DNA of 64,000 bases from Thermoanaerobaculia bacterium. GTDB lineage: Bacteria > Acidobacteriota > Thermoanaerobaculia > Multivoradales > Multivoraceae. The DNA lies in the NCBI GenBank assembly GCA_963664405.1, contig OY761158.1, positions 5,280,001 to 5,344,000 of the forward strand, written 5' to 3'. The notes beneath the pieces are model-generated. The model searched no databases, was not told the DNA's origin, and saw only the letters and a list, made by a program, of their open reading frames with translations. Position numbers and translations under genes: made by a program. How positions within the stretch are numbered: the stretch's first letter is position 1; every line of letters starts with the position of its first letter. Of this stretch, positions 52,406-57,223 are shown piece after piece.

Positions 52406-55090
52406 CTACGAGCCGGCTTGCCGGGGAACCATCTCCATCACCTTGGCCCTCCAATTCTGGATATAGACCACGCGCTGACTTTCGGCCCTGGGTGCGCGGA
52501 GCATCAAGAATCGGCCGTCCGGGTGGGTGGGGTTGTAATTCGGAAACCCGGTGAAGGGATGGCGCATGTAGACGTCTTCGAACAGAGCCTCGGCCCGGCC
52601 GGGGAAGATGCTCCCGTCGACAAGCTCGATTGGAATGGCCATCACGTGAGTCGGGCCGCGATAGAAGAGCTCGCTCCCATCGTAAGAGAAGAACGGCTCC
52701 TGGCCGCCGTCGGGGGTGAGCTGCCGAGGCTCACCGGGGCCTGGGAAGGGTCGAATCCAGACGTTCGACTGCCCCAAGGACGATCGCGTGGCGTAGGTGA
52801 TCCAACTCCCGCGGGGATGGAAGCGGGCACAGTGGACGATCTCAGCTTCCACGAGCGTCTTCGACTCTCCTCGCTCTCGGTCGTAGACCCAGAGACCTGG
52901 TTGAAGGAGGTTCGTGCCAAGAACGTGTCGGCCGTCCGGAGAGAAACCGAGCCAAACCTGGGCGTGCTCTGAGGGCACCAGTCGTACTGCCGGCGCGGTG
53001 CGATCCGCGGGTTGGATGTAGATCTGGTTGAGACCCTCGAGGCGGTTCGATTGGAAGACAATCTCTCTGCCATCGGGCGGCACCCACTCGATCACAGAGT
53101 TGTTCGCCCCCTCCTGTTGCGGCAGGCTCCAAGAGCCGGTTTCGAGATCGAGGATCCACTGCTCCTGGTTGTTCGGCGGCGGCCCGACCGATACCGCAAG
53201 CTGTCGCTGGTCGAGAGAGAGGGAGGGTACAGTGAAAGCTCTCAGATCCGGGCTGACCGCTTCGACATCCCGTCCGTCCCGGCTCACCCAGACCAGCTGC
53301 GCGTCGTTGCTCTCGTGGCCGAAAACGTAAATCAGGTCGCCCGAGAGGGAGAGCGCGAAGTTGCCGACGTCGGCTCCGGATGCGGGGAGCCTTGCCACTC
53401 CGGTCTCGATTTGAACAACCGGCCCGCGAAGCTCTCCGGCCGTCGGCTCAAAGGCCGCCGCCCACAGGCTCCTATCCCGGTAGAAGACCAGATAGCCTGG
53501 ATCGAGGTAGCGCGGCCCCTGTCCGGCGACGACAACCCGCTCCTCCCCAGTCTCGACGTTGACCGCGAGCACGTCCATCCAGAAGCCGTCTCGCTGCTCT
53601 TTGGGCGCCTGGGTCAGTACGATGATCTCACCCGGCAACATAGCCCAGGCCGAGCCATGACCGAGCCGTTCCGGCTCTCCTCCTTCTGCTGGAACACGCC
53701 AGAGCTGGGCCGCTTCCTTGCTCTGGTGCATGCCCGGAAGGGGTGGAGAGTAGTAGAGAAAGCCGTCACGGCCCCAGAGTGACCCTTCTCCAATGGCCTC
53801 TATCCGTGTGACCGGGCTGCCTCCGGTTAGGGGAAGGAAGCGCAGGGTAGATTCTTCGTCGACGAAGGCAAGCTGCTGACCATCGGGAGAGAAGTTGGCC
53901 CACAGGGCTCCTTCGCTGCCAGGGATGGGGGTCGTCTCGAGGGAGTCGAGAGTTCGACGATTGAGGCCGGTGGACGTACCCTCGCCAGGTCCGAAGACGA
54001 GGGTCTTTCCGTTTGGAGAGAGCGAGAATCCGTGATTGGGTATCGGCACGTTGAGCTCGGTAACGGTCCAGGATTCTTTTGTGGCGACAGGGGTAACAGC
54101 CGCGTCTCTCCGGCCGCCGATGACCAGACCCGTCCCGAGAGCAATCAGTATCGCCAGCCCAGCCGCACCGAGAACGACGGCGGACGGCGCCTTCCTTACT
54201 GTGGTCCGCGGACGATCCGTCTCCTGGCCTCCAGGCTCCCCCGCGAGTGACTCGAGCTCGATGGCGACATCCCTGGCAGACTGCCAGCGCCGATCCGGGT
54301 CCTTGGCAAGACAACGGCTCACGACCCAGTCGAGGCGGGGCTGTGCGACCGGCAGAGCTTCGTTCAGTGGGCGAGGCTCCGAAGCCATGATGGCGGTGAT
54401 CAGACTCGCCTGGCTCTCTCCCCGAAACGGCCGCTCGCCGGTGACCATCTCGTAGATCACACAGCCTAGGGCCCAGATGTCGGTGCGACCGTCGGCTTCT
54501 TTGCCCTCCAGCTGCTCGGGGGCCATATAGAGAGGAGTGCCTATGATCGAGTCTTGGCCGGTGATCGGCTTGAGCAGGGTGGGGGAACGGGTGTCGGCGG
54601 GCAGCGGCTGCGCATCGATGCTCTTCGCCAGCCCGAAGTCGAGCACCTTCACTCCGGTCTTGGTGAGCATCACATTGCCGGGCTTCAGGTCTCGATGCAC
54701 CACGCCAGCCCGATGAGCAGTATCGATGGCCTCGCCGATCTGAGCGCCGATCGCCAGCACCTGGTCTATGGGTAGAGCTCCCCGCTCGATGCGCTTCTCC
54801 AGGGTCTCGCCTTCGAGGAGCTCCATGACCAGAAAGTCGACCTCCAGCTCGGAGCCGACGTCGAAGAGAGTGCAGATGTTGGGGTGCTGGAGCTGGGAGA
54901 TGGTCTTGGCTTCGCGCTCCAGACGCTGACGGAGCTCGCTGTCTTGACTGAGGCGTTCGGGAAGGACCTTGATGGCGACTTCTCGACCTAGTCGCGTATC
55001 CTTGGCGCGATAGACCTCGCCCATCCCCCCGGCGCCGAGGCTCGAGAGCACCTCGTAGTTGCCGAGACGTGTGCCTGTGTCCAGCGCCAT
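52406..55090 (-). CDS. Ser/Thr protein kinase with TM helix and TolB/PD40-like beta-propeller
   Basis: GAGGMGEVY, AIK, HRDLKPGN, DFGLAK and APE motifs; SPDG repeats. Confidence 0.95.
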   Translation of the reverse strand: MALDTGTRLGNYEVLSSLGAGGMGEVYRAKDTRLGREVAIKVLPERLSQDSELRQRLEREAKTISQLQHPNICTLFDVGSELEVDFLVMELLEGETLEKRIERGALPIDQVLAIGAQIGEAIDTAHRAGVVHRDLKPGNVMLTKTGVKVLDFGLAKSIDAQPLPADTRSPTLLKPITGQDSIIGTPLYMAPEQLEGKEADGRTDIWALGCVIYEMVTGERPFRGESQASLITAIMASEPRPLNEALPVAQPRLDWVVSRCLAKDPDRRWQSARDVAIELESLAGEPGGQETDRPRTTVRKAPSAVVLGAAGLAILIALGTGLVIGGRRDAAVTPVATKESWTVTELNVPIPNHGFSLSPNGKTLVFGPGEGTSTGLNRRTLDSLETTPIPGSEGALWANFSPDGQQLAFVDEESTLRFLPLTGGSPVTRIEAIGEGSLWGRDGFLYYSPPLPGMHQSKEAAQLWRVPAEGGEPERLGHGSAWAMLPGEIIVLTQAPKEQRDGFWMDVLAVNVETGEERVVVAGQGPRYLDPGYLVFYRDRSLWAAAFEPTAGELRGPVVQIETGVARLPASGADVGNFALSLSGDLIYVFGHESNDAQLVWVSRDGRDVEAVSPDLRAFTVPSLSLDQRQLAVSVGPPPNNQEQWILDLETGSWSLPQQEGANNSVIEWVPPDGREIVFQSNRLEGLNQIYIQPADRTAPAVRLVPSEHAQVWLGFSPDGRHVLGTNLLQPGLWVYDRERGESKTLVEAEIVHCARFHPRGSWITYATRSSLGQSNVWIRPFPGPGEPRQLTPDGGQEPFFSYDGSELFYRGPTHVMAIPIELVDGSIFPGRAEALFEDVYMRHPFTGFPNYNPTHPDGRFLMLRAPRAESQRVVYIQNWRAKVMEMVPRQAGS

Positions 55091-55104
55091 TGAAGCGTCT
55101 GCTC

Positions 55105-56511
55105 CTAAGTAACTTCCTCTGTCTGTAGCGAGCCGCGATCGAGCGGCAGAAGGGAGAAGCCGAGACGTTTAGCGTTGCGTTTGAGGTTCTTGAGGACACG
55201 TTTTCGATACTCGGTCTCGTAGTAGTCCTGTGACTTCGCAGCGTACTCGGTTCCGTATCGGAGCATCGAGTAGATGATGCGTGCGAGCTTGTGAGCGGTT
55301 GCGGTGATGGCCTCCGGTCTTCCGATCTGACCCTTCTTGCGACGGAGAAAGGCGCCGAGAGAGCTGTGCGAGTTATGCAGGCCATTCGCGGCGAATCGCA
55401 GGGCGGAGGCAGCCCGATTCGCCGAGGCTTTCGAGCGACTACTCAGCTGCTTGCCGCCGGTGATCTTGCTCCCGGGACAGAGCCCGAGCCACGACGCGAA
55501 ATGCTTCGAGTTGGGCCATCGAGTCATGTCGAGTCCGATCTCACCGATGACTTTCAGTGCCGTGTGCGCCTGAATTCCCTCGATCGCTGTGAGGTCGACC
55601 CCTGTCATGCGGAACAGATGAGAGCGCGCATCGAAGCCCAACCCGGTCCGGGTCTGCTTCTCCTTGGCCTTCTTCGGTGGGGTTTGTCCGCCCGATTGGT
55701 CTTCGAAACCTTCGAGGTAGGTCTCGATCTTCTGGTCGCACTCGCCGACTTTCTGGTGGTAGATATCGAAAAGCTCCACCGCCTGCCGGAGCTCGAAGAG
55801 ATGTTCTTCACGCCAATGACCTTCCAGCGCCTTGGCGATCGTCGCCTCGCTGTTCTTGCATCGACCATCTCGCATCTGGGCCAATCGTTTTGGATCCTGC
55901 TCACCCTCGAGAATCGCTCGGATGATCCGCATCCCGGTCGCCCCCGTGATGTCGCTGACCACATGCTGGAGTTTGATGTTCATCTGGGTCATCGCCTTTT
56001 GCATGTGTTGAATATGCTGGCCTGCGTACGAGACCAGCATCGCGCGCTGTCGCAGGTAGCTGCGCAGAACACAGATTTGATCGTCCGGCCGAAACGCTCC
56101 CCCCAACAGCCCAAAGGTGTGCAGCTGCTGAAGCCATTGGCAATCCAGCACGTCGCTCTTGCGACCAGGAACCTGGCGAAGACGATGAGGGTCGACCAAC
56201 TTCACCTCGAAACCCCGCTCCTCGAGCACCTCCATCAATGGAATCCAGTACACACCCGTCGACTCCATCACCACCGTGTCGATCCCACACGCCAGAAGAT
56301 GCTCGGCCAGCGAGTACAGATCCGCCGTGAACGCTCCGAACTTCCGAACCGGCTGCGAATCCCGGTCTTCGGGCACCGCCACCCAATGCTCCGTCGCTCC
56401 GATATCGATCCCGGCAGCATTCAGGTTGACCTGCTCAAGGCTTGCCGGCAGCTGGGATCGACGGCGCTTCGAATCACCCGCCGACCGACGACGCTCTTTC
56501 TTCCGAGACAT
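55105..56511 (-). CDS. IS110 DEDD transposase/recombinase
   Basis: AGIDIG, MESTGVYW, KSDVLD, WLGLCP and ATAHKLAR motifs. GGAGG RBS. Confidence 0.95.
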   Translation of the reverse strand: MSRKKERRRSAGDSKRRRSQLPASLEQVNLNAAGIDIGATEHWVAVPEDRDSQPVRKFGAFTADLYSLAEHLLACGIDTVVMESTGVYWIPLMEVLEERGFEVKLVDPHRLRQVPGRKSDVLDCQWLQQLHTFGLLGGAFRPDDQICVLRSYLRQRAMLVSYAGQHIQHMQKAMTQMNIKLQHVVSDITGATGMRIIRAILEGEQDPKRLAQMRDGRCKNSEATIAKALEGHWREEHLFELRQAVELFDIYHQKVGECDQKIETYLEGFEDQSGGQTPPKKAKEKQTRTGLGFDARSHLFRMTGVDLTAIEGIQAHTALKVIGEIGLDMTRWPNSKHFASWLGLCPGSKITGGKQLSSRSKASANRAASALRFAANGLHNSHSSLGAFLRRKKGQIGRPEAITATAHKLARIIYSMLRYGTEYAAKSQDYYETEYRKRVLKNLKRNAKRLGFSLLPLDRGSLQTEEVT

Positions 56512-56753
56512 ACATCCTCCTCTTGTGCGCAAACCGCACAGGAGTGGGAGCCGCACACTCTGGCACTCTCCTAAACGGGATCACGATCTCTCGTGTCGCC
56601 ACTGTCTTCTACGCAACGCTCCCAGGACCACGCTAGCTAACGGGCACGAAGCACCAATGCTCTTCCGGCCTTCTTCTCCCCGTGCGGTGCCAACAGAGTA
56701 TCCTGACTGCGCACCGTTACTTCCCGTCTCCAAGTCGTCCCGACGTACCTACG
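56512..56753 (-). ncRNA. Putative bridge/seek RNA region of IS110
   Basis: Two similar modules, CA(T/G)TGG(T/C)G...CCCGT-[7 nt]-NGTG, whose 7-mers equal the two junction sequences. Exact RNA ends unknown. Confidence 0.7.
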
Positions 56754-57223
56754 CTAGCTACTGAACATCCGAGGTTTTTTGAACAGGCGGGGCAGGGGCG
56801 CCCGCCGCCGAGGAGCACGATTGCGAGGAAGATGAGCAGGTAGAGGAAAGCCATTTCGGGGCTGCCGATCTTGTCCAGCGCCTCACTGGGTGTGCTCGAC
56901 AGACCGATGAAGGAGAGTACGTGATCGATCAAGTGCTTCTTGACAAAGGCGGCGACAAACATGGTGACGGCGCAGAGGGCGGCGACGATCCGCGGCCAGA
57001 CGCCCAGGGCGAGGAGGATGCCGCCGACAAACTCGGACAAGGCGGCGGCCCAGCTGAACAAGCCTGGCATCGGAAACCCCAGGTCTCCAATGCCATCGAC
57101 AAAGCGCTGTCCTTCACCGCTGGTCAGCATCACGATCTTGTCGAGGCCATGACCGAAGGCGATGCCGAAGCCCGAGAGTCGGAGAATAAGGAGGGCGATA
57201 TTTCGTGTCAGCTCGCCGTTCAT
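56754..57223 (-). CDS. DoxX family membrane protein (probable 1-nt frameshift near 56796)
   Basis: LRL..HGLDK, LGFPMP..EFVGG and E.AFLY motifs. One extra C in the 4-C run gives GGGRPLPRLFKKPRMFSS*, ending at the IS core. Confidence 0.8.

What the first reader, a model, noticed from the sequence alone, without database searches (positions are those of the whole stretch)
55091..56765. IS110 bridge-RNA guides readable from sequence: both junctions are encoded in the non-coding end
Seen (minus strand): the non-coding region holds two parallel modules, CCCGT-TAGCTAG-CGTG (56639-56633) and CCCGT-TTAGGAG-AGTG (56574-56568). TAGCTAG equals the host flank plus core at the left junction (56760-56754). 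TTAGGAG equals the element end plus core at the right junction (55108-55102). Both end in the shared AG (CT on the plus strand). Known: IS110 recombinases use a bridge/seek RNA with target- and donor-binding loops, and IS621 uses a CT core. Inference: these are one target guide and one donor guide of an intact programmable recombinase, with predicted target TAGCT-AG-CAGA and circle junction TTAGG-AG-CGTA. I could not confidently locate the partner guides for the other side of the core, so the loop layout may differ from IS621.
Basis: partly seen in the sequence, partly recalled or inferred. Interest (0 to 1): 0.8.

Follow-up and report, generated by a model that had tools for sequence, protein, structure and literature searches.

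The report
IS110 element with readable bridge-RNA guides
This is an intact jumping gene of the IS110 family whose leader encodes a small folded RNA that spells out both the host site it inserts into and its own end; the mechanism is a known one, but here the readable guides sit on the opposite side of the RNA loops from the textbook example IS621.

Summary
On the minus strand a 1,652-bp IS110-family element (56753-55102) lies between TAGCT-AG and a second AG. The genome holds three identical copies. A paralogous empty site shows that TAGCT-AG is host DNA. The two 7-mers lie in the two internal loops of a ~160-nt structured RNA upstream of the transposase gene. A covariance model finds this RNA in 89 of 94 sources. 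The donor 7-mer recurs exactly after the transposase gene in 76 of 83 testable loci (permuted mean 10.4). The target 9-mer recurs with at most one mismatch 100-175 nt upstream in 57 of 71 (permuted 3.8).

Refinements:
- The target guide is 9-10 nt: LT5, the AG core, then the first 2-3 nt of the element, a handshake-type extension.
- The missing right-side target guide is the 5' strand of loop 1 (56665-56657).
- Both 7-mers lie on the 3' strands of their loops, the opposite of IS621 and ISEc21, and match the order reported for IS1111-type seekRNAs.
- A covarying inverted repeat links 56722-56716 to the right subterminus.
- No guide for the donor's right side was found.

This is a known mechanism in a variant layout. 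There is no direct RNA or circle-junction evidence.

The parts
56754..56760 (-). Host left target: LT5 (TAGCT) plus the left copy of the AG core.
   Evidence: Present at all 3 copies. Shown to be host DNA by the paralogous empty site CTAGCTAG|ATCGCG at G000 5435856.
55102..56753 (-). The IS110-family element, 1,652 bp. It runs from CGTAGG (RD) to TTAGG-AG (LD plus one core copy).
   Evidence: Three 100%-identical copies in the genome. Boundaries come from the paralogous empty site.
56733..56745 (-). Small GC-rich hairpin just inside the left end (CGTCG-GGA-CGACT).
   Evidence: Read from the sequence. A GC-rich hairpin at the same place is visible in the homologue alignment, by inspection only; it was not tested statistically.
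56716..56722 (-). X: AAGTAAC, the reverse complement of the right subterminal GTTACTT.
   Evidence: An inverted repeat of at least 7 nt between the left end (about +31 to +40) and the right subterminus is present in 41 of 50 loci (permuted mean 11.7, maximum 19). An earlier set gave 23 of 29. Pairing covers LD positions -4 to -10, sometimes to -12.
56531..56690 (-). Bridge-RNA core, about 160 nt. An outer stem P0 (56687-56676 with 56544-56534) encloses two stem-loops, each with an internal loop.
   Evidence: Constrained and free MFE folds keep P0, P1 and stem A. RNAalifold predicts P1 and both inner stems. The covariance model finds one match in the window, at 56563-56676.
56657..56665 (-). 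5' strand of loop 1 (GAAGAGCAU): the target's right-side guide. C56659 faces the core G. GAGAA (read 3' to 5') would pair with RT1-5 = CTCTT.
   Evidence: Complementary to RT1-4 in 147 of 272 cells against 72.4 permuted (z 10.5). In AG-core loci, one per distinct G1, 95 of 192 against 48.8 (z 7.5). The core-facing bases switch from CA to UU in AA-core loci.
56631..56640 (-). 3' strand of loop 1 (U-UAGCU-AG-CG): the target's left-side guide plus the core plus a 2-nt handshake-type extension that equals RD1-2.
   Evidence: The extension equals RD1-2 in 15 of 20 loci and RT1-2 in 1 of 20.
56626..56670 (-). Stem-loop 1 (target-binding loop): P1 GGCCG (56670-56666) with UGGUC (56630-56626); inner stem UGGUGC with GUGCCCG (56656-56641).
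   Evidence: RNAalifold. Pair counts across 90 distinct sequences, for example GC 65, GU 12, AU 11 at the outermost P1 pair.
56545..56624 (-). Stem-loop 2 (donor-binding loop): stem A UGGGAGC (56624-56618) with GCUCCCA (56551-56545); inner stem 56601-56591 with 56586-56576.
   Evidence: Stem A: the best contiguous helix is at least 6 bp in 37 of 39 loci, with a mean of 6.85 against 5.71 permuted (sd 0.18). Inner stem.
56566..56575 (-). 3' strand of loop 2 (U-UUAGG-AG-AG): the donor guide, equal to LD5 plus the core.
   Evidence: The 7-mer is exact at the right end in 76 of 83 loci.
56602..56617 (-). 5' strand of loop 2 (GUUGCGUAGAAGACAG). This is where a second donor guide would be expected, but no convincing pairing was found.
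   Evidence: Against RD1-5 the best register gives z 2.9 (91 of 250 against 72.7 permuted). There is no contiguous-match signal.
55105..56511 (-). Transposase gene, 468 aa. ATG at 56511, preceded by GAGGAGG at 56522-56516. The stop codon TAG at 55107-55105 lies inside LD5.
   Evidence: DEDD residues are D36, E83, D120 and D123, and T351 sits at the Ser/Thr nucleophile position.
55107..55113 (-). Right subterminal repeat arm GTTACTT, the partner of X.
55102..55108 (-). Right end: LD5 (TTAGG) plus the right copy of the AG core.
55091..55101 (-). Host right target (RT) of this copy, CAGACGCTTCA, followed by the ATG of the Ser/Thr kinase gene at 55090.
   Evidence: The right flanks of the three copies are unrelated: CAGA, TCTC and ATCG.

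Best explanation
This is an intact, recently active IS110-family insertion sequence of 1,652 bp. It moves by RNA-guided, core-centred recombination, the bridge/seek-RNA mechanism.

Its left non-coding end encodes a ~160-nt RNA. An outer stem (P0) encloses two stem-loops, and each stem-loop has an internal loop.

**Loop 1 reads the target**
- Its 3' strand, UAGCU-AG-CG, has the sense of LT5, the core and RD1-2. It would therefore pair with the strand that carries 5'-CT-3'.
- Its 5' strand, GAAGAG-C-AU, is complementary to the core G plus RT1-5 on the other strand.

**Loop 2 reads the element's own right end**
- Its 3' strand is UUAGG-AG.

The RNA architecture matches IS621: two pseudo-symmetric loops, a G-U linker before each 3' guide, the core read in both loops, and a 2-nt handshake after the core. 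The site polarity relative to the RNA and transposase transcription unit is inverted. The CT strand is antisense to the RNA. The top-strand match is therefore 5' of the bottom-strand match, as reported for IS1111-type seekRNAs.

A third element-directed segment, X, is complementary to the right subterminus.

**Shown:** element boundaries, copy number, RNA structure conservation, and covariation of the guides with the ends.

**Inferred:** that the RNA is made and bound by the transposase, the base pairing itself, the circular intermediate, and the role of X.
For: **Family and copies**
- Pfam PF01548 and PF02371 match. NCBIfam NF033542 scores 260.6 bits. There is distant similarity to the IS621 transposase in the PDB (E 5.2e-05).
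- The catalytic DEDD residues and the Ser/Thr nucleophile position are conserved.
- The genome holds 3 copies that are 100% identical. Their flanks differ immediately outside TAGCTAG...TTAGGAG.

**Boundaries**
- Two of the three copies abut the termini of a 1.72-kb IS5-like element with 4 copies, each flanked by CTAGCTAG.
- The unoccupied copy at G000 5435856 reads CTAGCTAG|ATCGCGTCCGG. This is the right flank of L003.

**RNA structure**
- RNAalifold on 28 sequences predicts P1 and both inner stems, and it places both 7-mers directly 3' of the inner stems.
- A covariance model finds 92 full-length matches in 89 of 94 sources. Where I compared a match with the transposase coordinates, it lay upstream on the same strand; I did not check all 92. 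One match (L050 601-714) is on the other strand.
- 97.8% of cells are paired, against 84.7% in shuffles and 29-49% when the partners are slid. 13 of 19 pairs show changes on both sides.
- Stem A is supported, and the WIN fold keeps P0, P1 and stem A.
- G-U pairs are fixed on this strand (GU 84 of 90 and UG 86-88 of 90 at three pairs), so the sense strand is the RNA.

**Guides**
- Donor 7-mer exact at the right end: 76 of 83 loci. Target 7-mer exact upstream: 40 of 71. Target 9-mer with at most 1 mismatch: 57 of 71. Permutation controls are far lower.
- The first set gave 38 of 41, 18 of 41 and 13 of 41.
- The core covaries between the loops: AG/AG in 66 loci, AA/AA in 22, discordant in 2, of 90. 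The 5' strand of loop 1 has CA in 56 of 67 AG loci and UU in 19 of 23 AA loci.
- The 5' strand of loop 1 complements RT1-4.
- The handshake extension equals RD1-2 in 15 of 20 loci and RT1-2 in 1 of 20.

**IS621 and seekRNA layout, from paper text**
- Durrant 2024, passages.
- Hiraizumi 2024, passages.
- Siddiquee 2024 preprint, abstract and sections 5, 8 and 11.
Against: - **No direct RNA evidence.** No RNA holder was listed.
- **No circle or empty site observed.** The runs are kept as contigs, which cannot show rare forms.
- **Weak fit to its own right flanks.** The 5' strand of loop 1 in this element predicts RT = CTCTT. The three real right flanks fit poorly: CAGAC matches 1 of 5, TCTCG 0 of 5 and ATCGC 2 of 5 by Watson-Crick pairing. 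In this genome only the TAGCT-AG half is demonstrably used.
- **No donor right-side guide.** No guide for RD was found, although IS621 needs one.
- **Weak second handshake.** The extension of the loop-2 guide equals RT1-2 in 12 of 68 loci, against 7.6 permuted with a maximum of 15.
- **Inflated statistics.** Homologous loci are related, which inflates permutation statistics. The AA-core group is largely one clade, so the core switch may be only one or two events.
- **Fitted alignment.** Alignment A4 is fitted to the model.
- **A false positive.** One downstream donor match (L025) is really the target guide of a second, tandem element.
- **Comparison rests on text.** The comparison with IS621 uses paper text. 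I did not analyse an IS621 sequence with the same pipeline.
- **No promoter found.** The sigma-70 scan found none.
Confidence: 0.85

Rival explanations
1. Canonical IS621 layout. The two 7-mers would be the left target guide and left donor guide on the 5' strands of their loops, with the partner guides lying 3' of them.
For: The 7-mers have the same sense as LT+core and LD+core, as LTG and LDG do in IS621. Early on I read ACUCC (56546-56542) as a possible right target guide plus handshake.
Against: RNAalifold and the covariance-model alignment place both 7-mers immediately 3' of the inner stems, inside the closing stems P1 and stem A. ACUCC lies in the outer stem P0. The covarying right-side target guide is 5' of the 7-mer. 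The 2-nt extension matches RD and not RT, which is the behaviour of a handshake next to a 3' guide.
Confidence: 0.07
2. The repeats are protein-recognised DNA sites, that is, short terminal or subterminal repeats, and the non-coding end is only a leader. No RNA guide would be involved.
For: No RNA data exist for this element. X and its partner could equally be two half-sites for a dimeric protein, because an inverted repeat covaries under that model too. No Rfam family matches.
Against: The 7-mers vary freely between close relatives: 24 distinct donor 7-mers and 47 distinct target 7-mers. Meanwhile the surrounding RNA helices are conserved with compensatory changes. The target 7-mer matches host DNA that differs from locus to locus. 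The protein family is the one shown experimentally to use such RNAs.
Confidence: 0.04
3. TAGCTAG belongs to the element. On this view the element is 1,659 bp and inserts without sequence preference, and the internal copy is a chance or structural repeat.
For: All three copies share TAGCTAG, and the sequence outside it is unrelated. Assembly unitigs of exactly 1,659 nt span 55102-56760.
Against: The empty paralogue already carries CTAGCTAG next to the same right flank. In homologues the equivalent 5 nt differ between related elements whose left ends align, such as L005 and L007. The 1,659-nt unitig is what a collapsed repeat with a constant target half-site would give.
Confidence: 0.02
4. X (56722-56716) is a third RNA guide. 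It would hold the strand of the donor's left arm that the loop-2 guide displaces, and so replace the missing right-side donor guide.
For: At least 7 nt of complementarity in 41 of 50 loci, against 11.7 permuted. It overlaps the loop-2 guide's footprint by 2 nt (LD -4 and -5). Flanking mismatches are more often G:T or U:G (31) than A:C or C:A (11). No other second donor guide was found.
Against: It is not known whether transcription starts upstream of X. The variable part is only 1-3 nt of a conserved GTTNCTT motif. The G-rich composition could explain the wobble bias. Subterminal inverted repeats of unknown role are already described for IS1111-type elements.
Confidence: 0.3

Closest known systems
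IS621 bridge RNA and recombinase (Durrant et al. 2024, PMC11208160; Hiraizumi et al. 2024, PMC11208158; passages read)
   Same: - DEDD plus Tnp_20 recombinase.
- RNA encoded in the left end, upstream of the gene.
- Two internal loops, one for the target and one for the donor.
- The core dinucleotide is read in both loops, and it is CT on the strand paired by the 3' guides.
- A 2-nt handshake follows the core on the 3' target guide and matches the donor.
- The second core base (T; A on the RNA-sense strand here) does not vary, while the first varies: AG or AA here.
   Different: - Here the 3' guides have the sense of LT and LD on the RNA-sense strand, so the site polarity is inverted relative to transcription.
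- The clear guides are 5+2(+2) nt on the 3' strands. The 5' target guide is short (about 5+1 nt).
- No right-side donor guide was found.
- An outer stem encloses both loops.
- The protein is 468 aa against 328 aa, and only distantly similar (E 5.2e-05).
ISEc21 seekRNA, an IS110-type element (Siddiquee et al. 2024 preprint, section 11 read)
   Same: The non-coding region lies upstream. Short RNA segments match both strands of the target. It also targets another insertion sequence, a conserved region of IS3-family transposase genes.
   Different: In ISEc21 the top-strand match is 3' of the bottom-strand match. Here it is 5'.
IS1111-type seekRNAs: ISEc11, ISPa11, ISKpn4 (same preprint, sections 5 and 8 read)
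   Same: The top-strand match lies 5' of the bottom-strand match, and the two matches overlap at the insertion point. Subterminal inverted repeats are present. The GL-P----S/T-G motif is shared.
   Different: Their non-coding region is usually downstream of the gene and their transposases are 330-350 aa. Here it is upstream and the protein is 468 aa. The left repeat arm lies about 31-40 nt inside the left end.
[quoted passage not shown]
   Same: It inserts at the ends of another mobile element. Here 2 of 3 copies sit at the CTAGCTAG that flanks an IS5-like element.
   Different: The host element and the target sequence differ. Here the third copy lies in an ordinary intergenic spacer.

Membership tests
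IS110 family RNA-guided transposase (protein) | N-terminal DEDD RuvC-like domain (PF01548) and C-terminal Tnp_20 domain (PF02371). | tested here: met
   PF01548 E 1.1e-16 and PF02371 E 1.2e-11. NF033542 scores 260.6 bits against a cut-off of 140.
IS110 family RNA-guided transposase (protein) | Catalytic D-E-D-D residues and a Ser (or Thr) nucleophile in a G..P....S/T-G motif. | tested here: met
   D36, E83, D120 and D123 are invariant in 7 of 7 aligned proteins. Position 351 is T in the window protein and L008 and S in the other 5.
IS110-family element (DNA) | No long terminal inverted repeats, and a short core present once in the target and at both junctions after insertion. | tested here: met
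   AG flanks the element on both sides. The empty paralogue has a single CTAGCTAG followed by the right flank.
IS621-type bridge RNA | Structured RNA in the left end, upstream of the recombinase gene, with two internal loops. | tested here: met
IS621-type bridge RNA | One loop matches the target and the other the donor, and both read the core. | tested here: met
IS621-type bridge RNA | [quoted passage not shown] | tested here: not met
   Here the 3' strands have the sense of LT5+core and LD5+core. The 5' strand of loop 1 is complementary to the core plus RT.
IS621-type bridge RNA | Handshake dinucleotide after the core on the 3' guides, matching the non-cognate DNA. | tested here: met
   Loop 1: the extension equals RD1-2 in 15 of 20 loci and RT1-2 in 1 of 20. 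Loop 2 is inconclusive: 12 of 68 against 7.6 permuted.
IS621-type bridge RNA | Both halves of the donor (LD and RD) are read by the donor loop. | tested here: inconclusive
   The LD side is clear. For the RD side the best register reaches only z 2.9, and no contiguous match stands above the permutations.
IS621-type bridge RNA | The RNA is transcribed and bound by the recombinase, and a circular intermediate rebuilds a promoter. | not testable with these tools
   No RNA holder was listed and the runs are kept as contigs only. The sigma-70 scan of the integrated copy found 0 sites. The joined circle sequence was not built.
IS1111-type seekRNA element | The top-strand match lies 5' of the bottom-strand match in the RNA. 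| tested here: met
.
IS1111-type seekRNA element | The long non-coding region lies downstream of the transposase gene. | tested here: not met
   Here it is upstream. The right end is almost nil, and the stop codon lies within LD5.
IS1111-type seekRNA element | Subterminal inverted repeats of 7-17 bp. | tested here: inconclusive
   A covarying inverted repeat of 7-12 nt exists, but its left arm lies about 31-40 nt inside the left end. I could not compare this with the published positions.
Rfam families | A match to a curated RNA family. | tested here: not met
   The only hit is mir-611, at 19 bits against a gathering score of 90 (E 0.81).

The most novel reading that the evidence does not exclude
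This clade is a third architecture of IS110-family RNA-guided recombination. It is widespread: 583 of 600 candidate stretches in the metagenome scan encode a relative, and relatives at about 52% identity occur on enterobacterial plasmids.

Three features define it:
- The bridge RNA is encoded upstream, but the recombination-site polarity is inverted relative to IS621 and ISEc21.
- Target choice is dominated by a 5+2-nt guide on a 3' strand.
- The right-side donor guide is replaced by a separate upstream segment, X, that pairs with the opposite strand of the donor's left arm. The donor would then be recognised on one arm only, by two RNA segments.
Probability: 0.25. Interest if true: 0.65.

Novelty: new variant of a known kind. 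Interest (0 to 1): 0.45.

Why it matters
Bridge and seek RNAs are being developed as programmable recombinases. Their design rules come almost entirely from IS621, IS622 and a few seekRNA elements.

This locus, together with about 90 relatives, gives a sequence-only, internally controlled example in which three things can be read directly:
- the target guide;
- the donor guide;
- the core and the handshake.

The strand order is the reverse of IS621, even though the RNA lies upstream of the gene. If that holds experimentally, site polarity relative to the RNA gene is not fixed within IS110-type elements. Guide-prediction pipelines that assume the IS621 order would then mislabel this clade.

The covarying segment X and the missing right-side donor guide give a concrete, testable question about how the element recognises its own ends.

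For the genome itself, the finding explains three identical insertions. Two of them sit at the ends of an IS5-like element.

Tried and rejected
1. **ACUCC as a right target guide.** I first read ACUCC, just after stem A (56546-56542), as a right target guide plus handshake. I rejected this because it lies in the outer stem P0.
2. **GCGUAG as an RD guide.** GCGUAG in the 5' strand of loop 2 has the same sense as G-CGTAG at the left end. I treated it as chance, because same-sense RD matches of at least 7 nt occur in 3 of 28 loci against 3.2 permuted.
3. **Right-side donor guide.** I tried fixed registers of the 5' strand of loop 2 against RD and alignment-free longest matches in both senses. Nothing was convincing.
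4. **Contiguous matches to RT.** In either sense they do not stand above the permutations (3 of 28 against 3.0, and 5 of 28 against 3.4). Only the register-fixed test shows the signal.
5. **Orthologous empty site.** I searched 30 relatives. They are too distant (65-82% identity), and the rows are dominated by kinase paralogues. None of the rows I read joined doxX to the kinase gene. I used a paralogous site in the same genome instead.
6. **Whole-leader fold.** The MFE fold of the whole 249-nt leader is not better than shuffles (z -1.35).
7. **Rfam.** No family matches.
8. **Promoter and terminator scan.** It found 0 sites. A -10-like GATACT at 56702-56697, with similar TAnnnT motifs in many homologues, was seen by eye only and is not claimed.
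9. **Sequencing runs.** No RNA holder was listed. All holders are kept as contigs. No joint for an empty site or a circle appeared in the 4 runs I laid. X7 record 28 has 24 extra letters beyond 56760 that I could not read.
11. **Supplementary files.** They are closed, so the per-orthologue guide tables of Durrant 2024 and the extended data of Siddiquee 2024, which may already list this clade or its strand order, were not seen.
12. **Literature searches.** There were two: 'bridge RNA' + IS110 + IS621 and 'bridge RNA' + STIR + IS110. Neither listing, nor the passages I read, mentions an upstream RNA with the IS1111 strand order. This is not proof that it is unpublished.


Full report
**What is in the sequence**

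On the minus strand the window reads ...GGATGTTCAG-TAGCTAG-CGTAGGTACG... at 56770-56744. It reads ...GAAGTTAC-TTAGGAG-CAGACGCTTCA-ATG at 55115-55088. Between these lies a 468-aa ORF (ATG 56511, stop 55107-55105) with Pfam DEDD_Tnp_IS110 and Transposase_20. NCBIfam NF033542, 'IS110 family RNA-guided transposase', matches at 260.6 bits against a cut-off of 140. The only solved relative is the IS621 transposase, and it is distant (E 5.2e-05). D36, E83, D120 and D123 are invariant in seven aligned relatives. Residue 351, at the nucleophile position, is Thr here and in L008 and Ser in the other five.

The left match is really 10 nt. TAGCTAGCGT occurs twice in the window against 0.05 expected. TTAGGAG alone is not rare, with 3 matches against 3.47 expected.

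**Boundaries**

The genome is one contig of 6.78 Mb and holds three 100%-identical copies. The shared block is exactly 56760..55102, that is TAGCTAG...TTAGGAG. The flanks are unrelated immediately outside it, and the right flanks are CAGA, TCTC and ATCG. Relatives are too distant to give an orthologous empty site, but the genome supplies a paralogous one.

Two of the three copies abut a 1.72-kb element with a DUF772/DDE_Tnp_1 transposase. Its imperfect terminal repeats are CTAGATCGCGTCCGGAAACG and CGATTCCGGACGAGAACTAG. It has four copies that are 99% identical, and almost every end is flanked by CTAGCTAG. At G000 5435856 the unoccupied left end reads CTAGCTAG|ATCGCGTCCGG. At copy L003 the same ATCGCGTCCGG follows ...TTAGGAG, and TAGCTAG precedes CGTAGG.

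TAGCT-AG is therefore host DNA. The element is CGTAGG...TTAGG plus one AG (56753-55102, 1,652 bp), and AG is the core present at both junctions. TAGCTAG occurs 106 times in the genome on both strands, where about 256 per strand would be expected from base composition.

**The RNA**

I collected 10 related loci from genome contigs and 80 from metagenomes. In the metagenome scan 583 of 600 candidate stretches encoded a relative, and the best 80 were kept. RNAalifold on 28 leaders predicts three features:
- A closing stem P1, RRCCG with UGGUY.
- An inner stem UGG(U)GC with GCCCG in the first module.
- An inner stem UGG(U)GA... with ...UCCCG in the second module.

Both 7-mers therefore follow the 3' strand of an inner stem after one linker U. 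They lie on the 3' strands of internal loops.

A covariance model built from 27 sequences finds 92 full-length matches in 89 of 94 sources. There are none in L013, L052, L092, L094 and L098, and two each in L025, L050 and L051. The window has exactly one match, at 56563-56676. Where I compared a match with the transposase coordinates, it lay upstream on the same strand, but I did not check all 92. The L050 601-714 match is on the other strand.

On the resulting alignment of 90 distinct rows, 97.8% of cells pair, against 84.7% in shuffles and 29-49% when the partners are slid. 13 of 19 pairs have changes on both sides. This alignment is fitted to the model. Near-invariant G-U pairs fix the strand.

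A further helix, stem A, joins the sequence just after P1 to the sequence after the second 7-mer. The best contiguous helix is at least 6 bp in 37 of 39 loci, with a mean of 6.85 against 5.71 permuted. In the window an outer stem P0 (56687-56676 with 56544-56534) encloses both stem-loops. Free and constrained folds both keep P0, P1 and stem A. Rfam has no matching family.

**Guides against ends**

With strict regular expressions, 41 of the 90 loci showed both modules. In those 41:

| Test | Observed | Permuted mean | Permuted maximum |
|---|---|---|---|
| Donor 7-mer exact 1,250-1,900 nt downstream | 38 | 4.6 | 10 |
| Target 7-mer exact upstream | 18 | 1.4 | 5 |
| Target 9-mer exact upstream | 13 | 0.5 | 3 |

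With the model alignment (90 entries, L002 and L003 dropped as duplicates):

| Test | Observed | Permuted mean | Permuted maximum |
|---|---|---|---|
| Donor 7-mer exact downstream | 76 of 83 | 10.4 | 18 |
| Target 7-mer exact upstream | 40 of 71 | 3.5 | 9 |
| Target 9-mer, at most 1 mismatch, 100-175 nt upstream | 57 of 71 | 3.8 | 9 |

There are 24 distinct donor 7-mers and 47 distinct target 7-mers. One of the downstream donor hits (L025) is in fact the target guide of a second, tandem element.

An alignment-free scan finds only three classes of repeat between the leader and the junctions: same-sense LT+core, same-sense LD+core, and antisense LD subterminus. It finds none for RD or RT.

**Core, handshake and the missing target guide**

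The core in the two 3' guides covaries: AG/AG in 66 loci, AA/AA in 22 and discordant in 2, of 90. The first base, A, never varies. This mirrors the published observation that the T of the CT core is almost invariant while the C varies.

The 2 nt after the core in the target guide equal RD1-2 in 15 of 20 loci whose junction was defined by the 7-mer alone. They equal RT1-2 in 1 of 20 (2,000 permutations: mean 5.8, maximum 14). That is what a handshake guide does in IS621.

The 5' strand of loop 1 ends in C-A-Y before the inner stem in 56 of 67 AG-core loci, and in U-U-U in 19 of 23 AA-core loci. Its third-last base therefore faces the second core base on the RNA-sense strand. In that register the next bases complement RT:
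- RT1-4: 147 of 272 cells against 72.4 permuted (z 10.5).
- Each of RT1 to RT5 is individually above expectation.
- RT1-4 are all paired in 15 of 68 loci, against 0.9 permuted.
- Restricted to AG-core loci, one per distinct target guide: 95 of 192 against 48.8 (z 7.5).

In the window it is GAAGAGCAU (56665-56657) and it predicts RT = CTCTT. The three real right flanks fit it poorly. The CTAGCTAG-TTCTC junctions at the other end of the IS5-like element fit better by hand count (3 of 5, plus one G:T), yet in that frame they are unoccupied.

**Comparison with known systems**

In IS621 each loop runs stem, left guide, stem-loop, right guide. The 5' guides pair with the bottom strand, so they have the sense of LT and LD. 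The 3' guides pair with the top strand. The RNA is made from the left end by a promoter at the RE-LE junction, and the donor top strand reads LD(RE)-core-RD(LE). The top strand is therefore the RNA-sense strand.

Here the 3' guides have the sense of LT and LD on the RNA-sense strand. If the DNA is flipped, everything matches IS621: the CT core, the 3' guide written as the complement of (handshake, core, 5 nt), and the 5' guide ending at the core next to the inner stem. The RNA-DNA geometry is thus conserved, while the site is inverted relative to the transcription unit.

Siddiquee et al. report that IS1111-type seekRNAs have the top-strand match 5' of the bottom-strand match, and that the IS110-type ISEc21 has the reverse. 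This element has the IS1111 order with an upstream RNA. They also note a few exceptions in RNA location, so the combination may not be unprecedented. I could not see supplements.

**Donor recognition and X**

The right side of the donor (RD) has no convincing guide. The best register of the 5' strand of loop 2 gives 91 of 250 against 72.7 permuted (z 2.9).

Instead, a segment about 31-40 nt inside the left end is the reverse complement of the right subterminus. In the window AAGTAAC (56722-56716) pairs with GTTACTT (55113-55107). The repeat is at least 7 nt in 41 of 50 loci (permuted 11.7, maximum 19). It covers LD -4 to -10 in 30-40 of about 41 distinct loci, and often -11 and -12, with compensating changes at the variable positions.

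X could be a third RNA guide, a subterminal inverted repeat bound by protein, or both. The excess of G:T and U:G over A:C and C:A mismatches (31 against 11) is only a weak hint for RNA.

**What is missing**

There is no RNA evidence, because no RNA holder was listed. No circle or empty-site joint appeared in four runs that are kept only as contigs. No promoter was found. I ran no control of my scripts on an IS621-type element.

**Verdict**

The element is a new member of the RNA-guided IS110 family. Its layout varies from the characterised IS110-type examples, and how it recognises its own right-hand donor arm remains an open question.

Noticed in passing
G000 5435865-5437588 (L104), 406516-408225 (L105), 2985146-2986855 and 2971465-2973173: A 1.72-kb IS5-like element (DUF772 plus DDE_Tnp_1 transposase, 443 aa). 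Its four copies are 99% identical and have 24-nt imperfect terminal repeats. They are flanked by CTAGCTAG, or by CTAGCTAGCTAG in one copy. Two of the three IS110 copies sit at these palindromic junctions.
   Followed up: yes
window 56797 (minus-strand doxX 3' end): Contigs of all four runs laid (two studies) carry an extra CGTA behind 56797 relative to the window. By my reading of the frame, the DoxX ORF would then end at the TAG of TAGCTAG (56760-56758) rather than running into the element, as the 168-aa ORF does. This may be an assembly indel or a strain difference.
   Followed up: partly
window 55091-55108: The element's right end supplies AGGAG 11 nt upstream of the ATG (55090) of the 894-aa Ser/Thr kinase gene with PD40 repeats. 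The element, doxX and the kinase gene all lie on the minus strand. Before insertion the spacer would have been only TAGCTAGCAGACGCTTCA.
   Followed up: no
L051 1615-1836, L025 about 2300-2522, L007 1149 and 2882: Tandem or piggy-back insertions. In L051 and L025 a second related element begins exactly at the right end of the first, and its target guide equals the first element's LD5 plus core. In L007, 12 nt (GTCCCTCAAGAG) are shown to be identical at both junctions, and the flanking bases printed suggest that about 16 are identical. That would fit self-targeting.
   Followed up: partly
L055, L060, L061, L063-L066, L068, L076, L079, L081, L082, L086, L089, L093, L096, L101 and L106 (NZ_CP117476.1 122076-123416): A subclade with an AA core whose target guides are A-runs (for example UAAAAAAACA). 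The copy on a Citrobacter freundii IncFIB plasmid lies right after ...GACATATTAAAAAA. By my own hand translation this looks like the end of an IS3-type orfA (...ERDILKK), but I did not test it. About 52%-identical transposases occur on many enterobacterial plasmids.
   Followed up: partly
window 56697-56702: GATACT lies between X and stem P0, and TAnnnT-like motifs appear at the same place in many homologues (TATAAT in L004, TAGACT in L005 and L007, TATACT in L025). This was seen by eye in the alignment. It could be an internal -10 box, in which case X would lie outside the short RNA. The consensus scan found no promoter.
   Followed up: no
window 55102-56760 in runs X3, X4 and X7: The repeat block is assembled as a separate unitig of 1,659 nt (1,683 nt in X7), with word depth 18-27 against 2-7 for the flanking contigs. 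This fits a multi-copy element in those samples, although the tool warns that depth is not a copy number.
   Followed up: no
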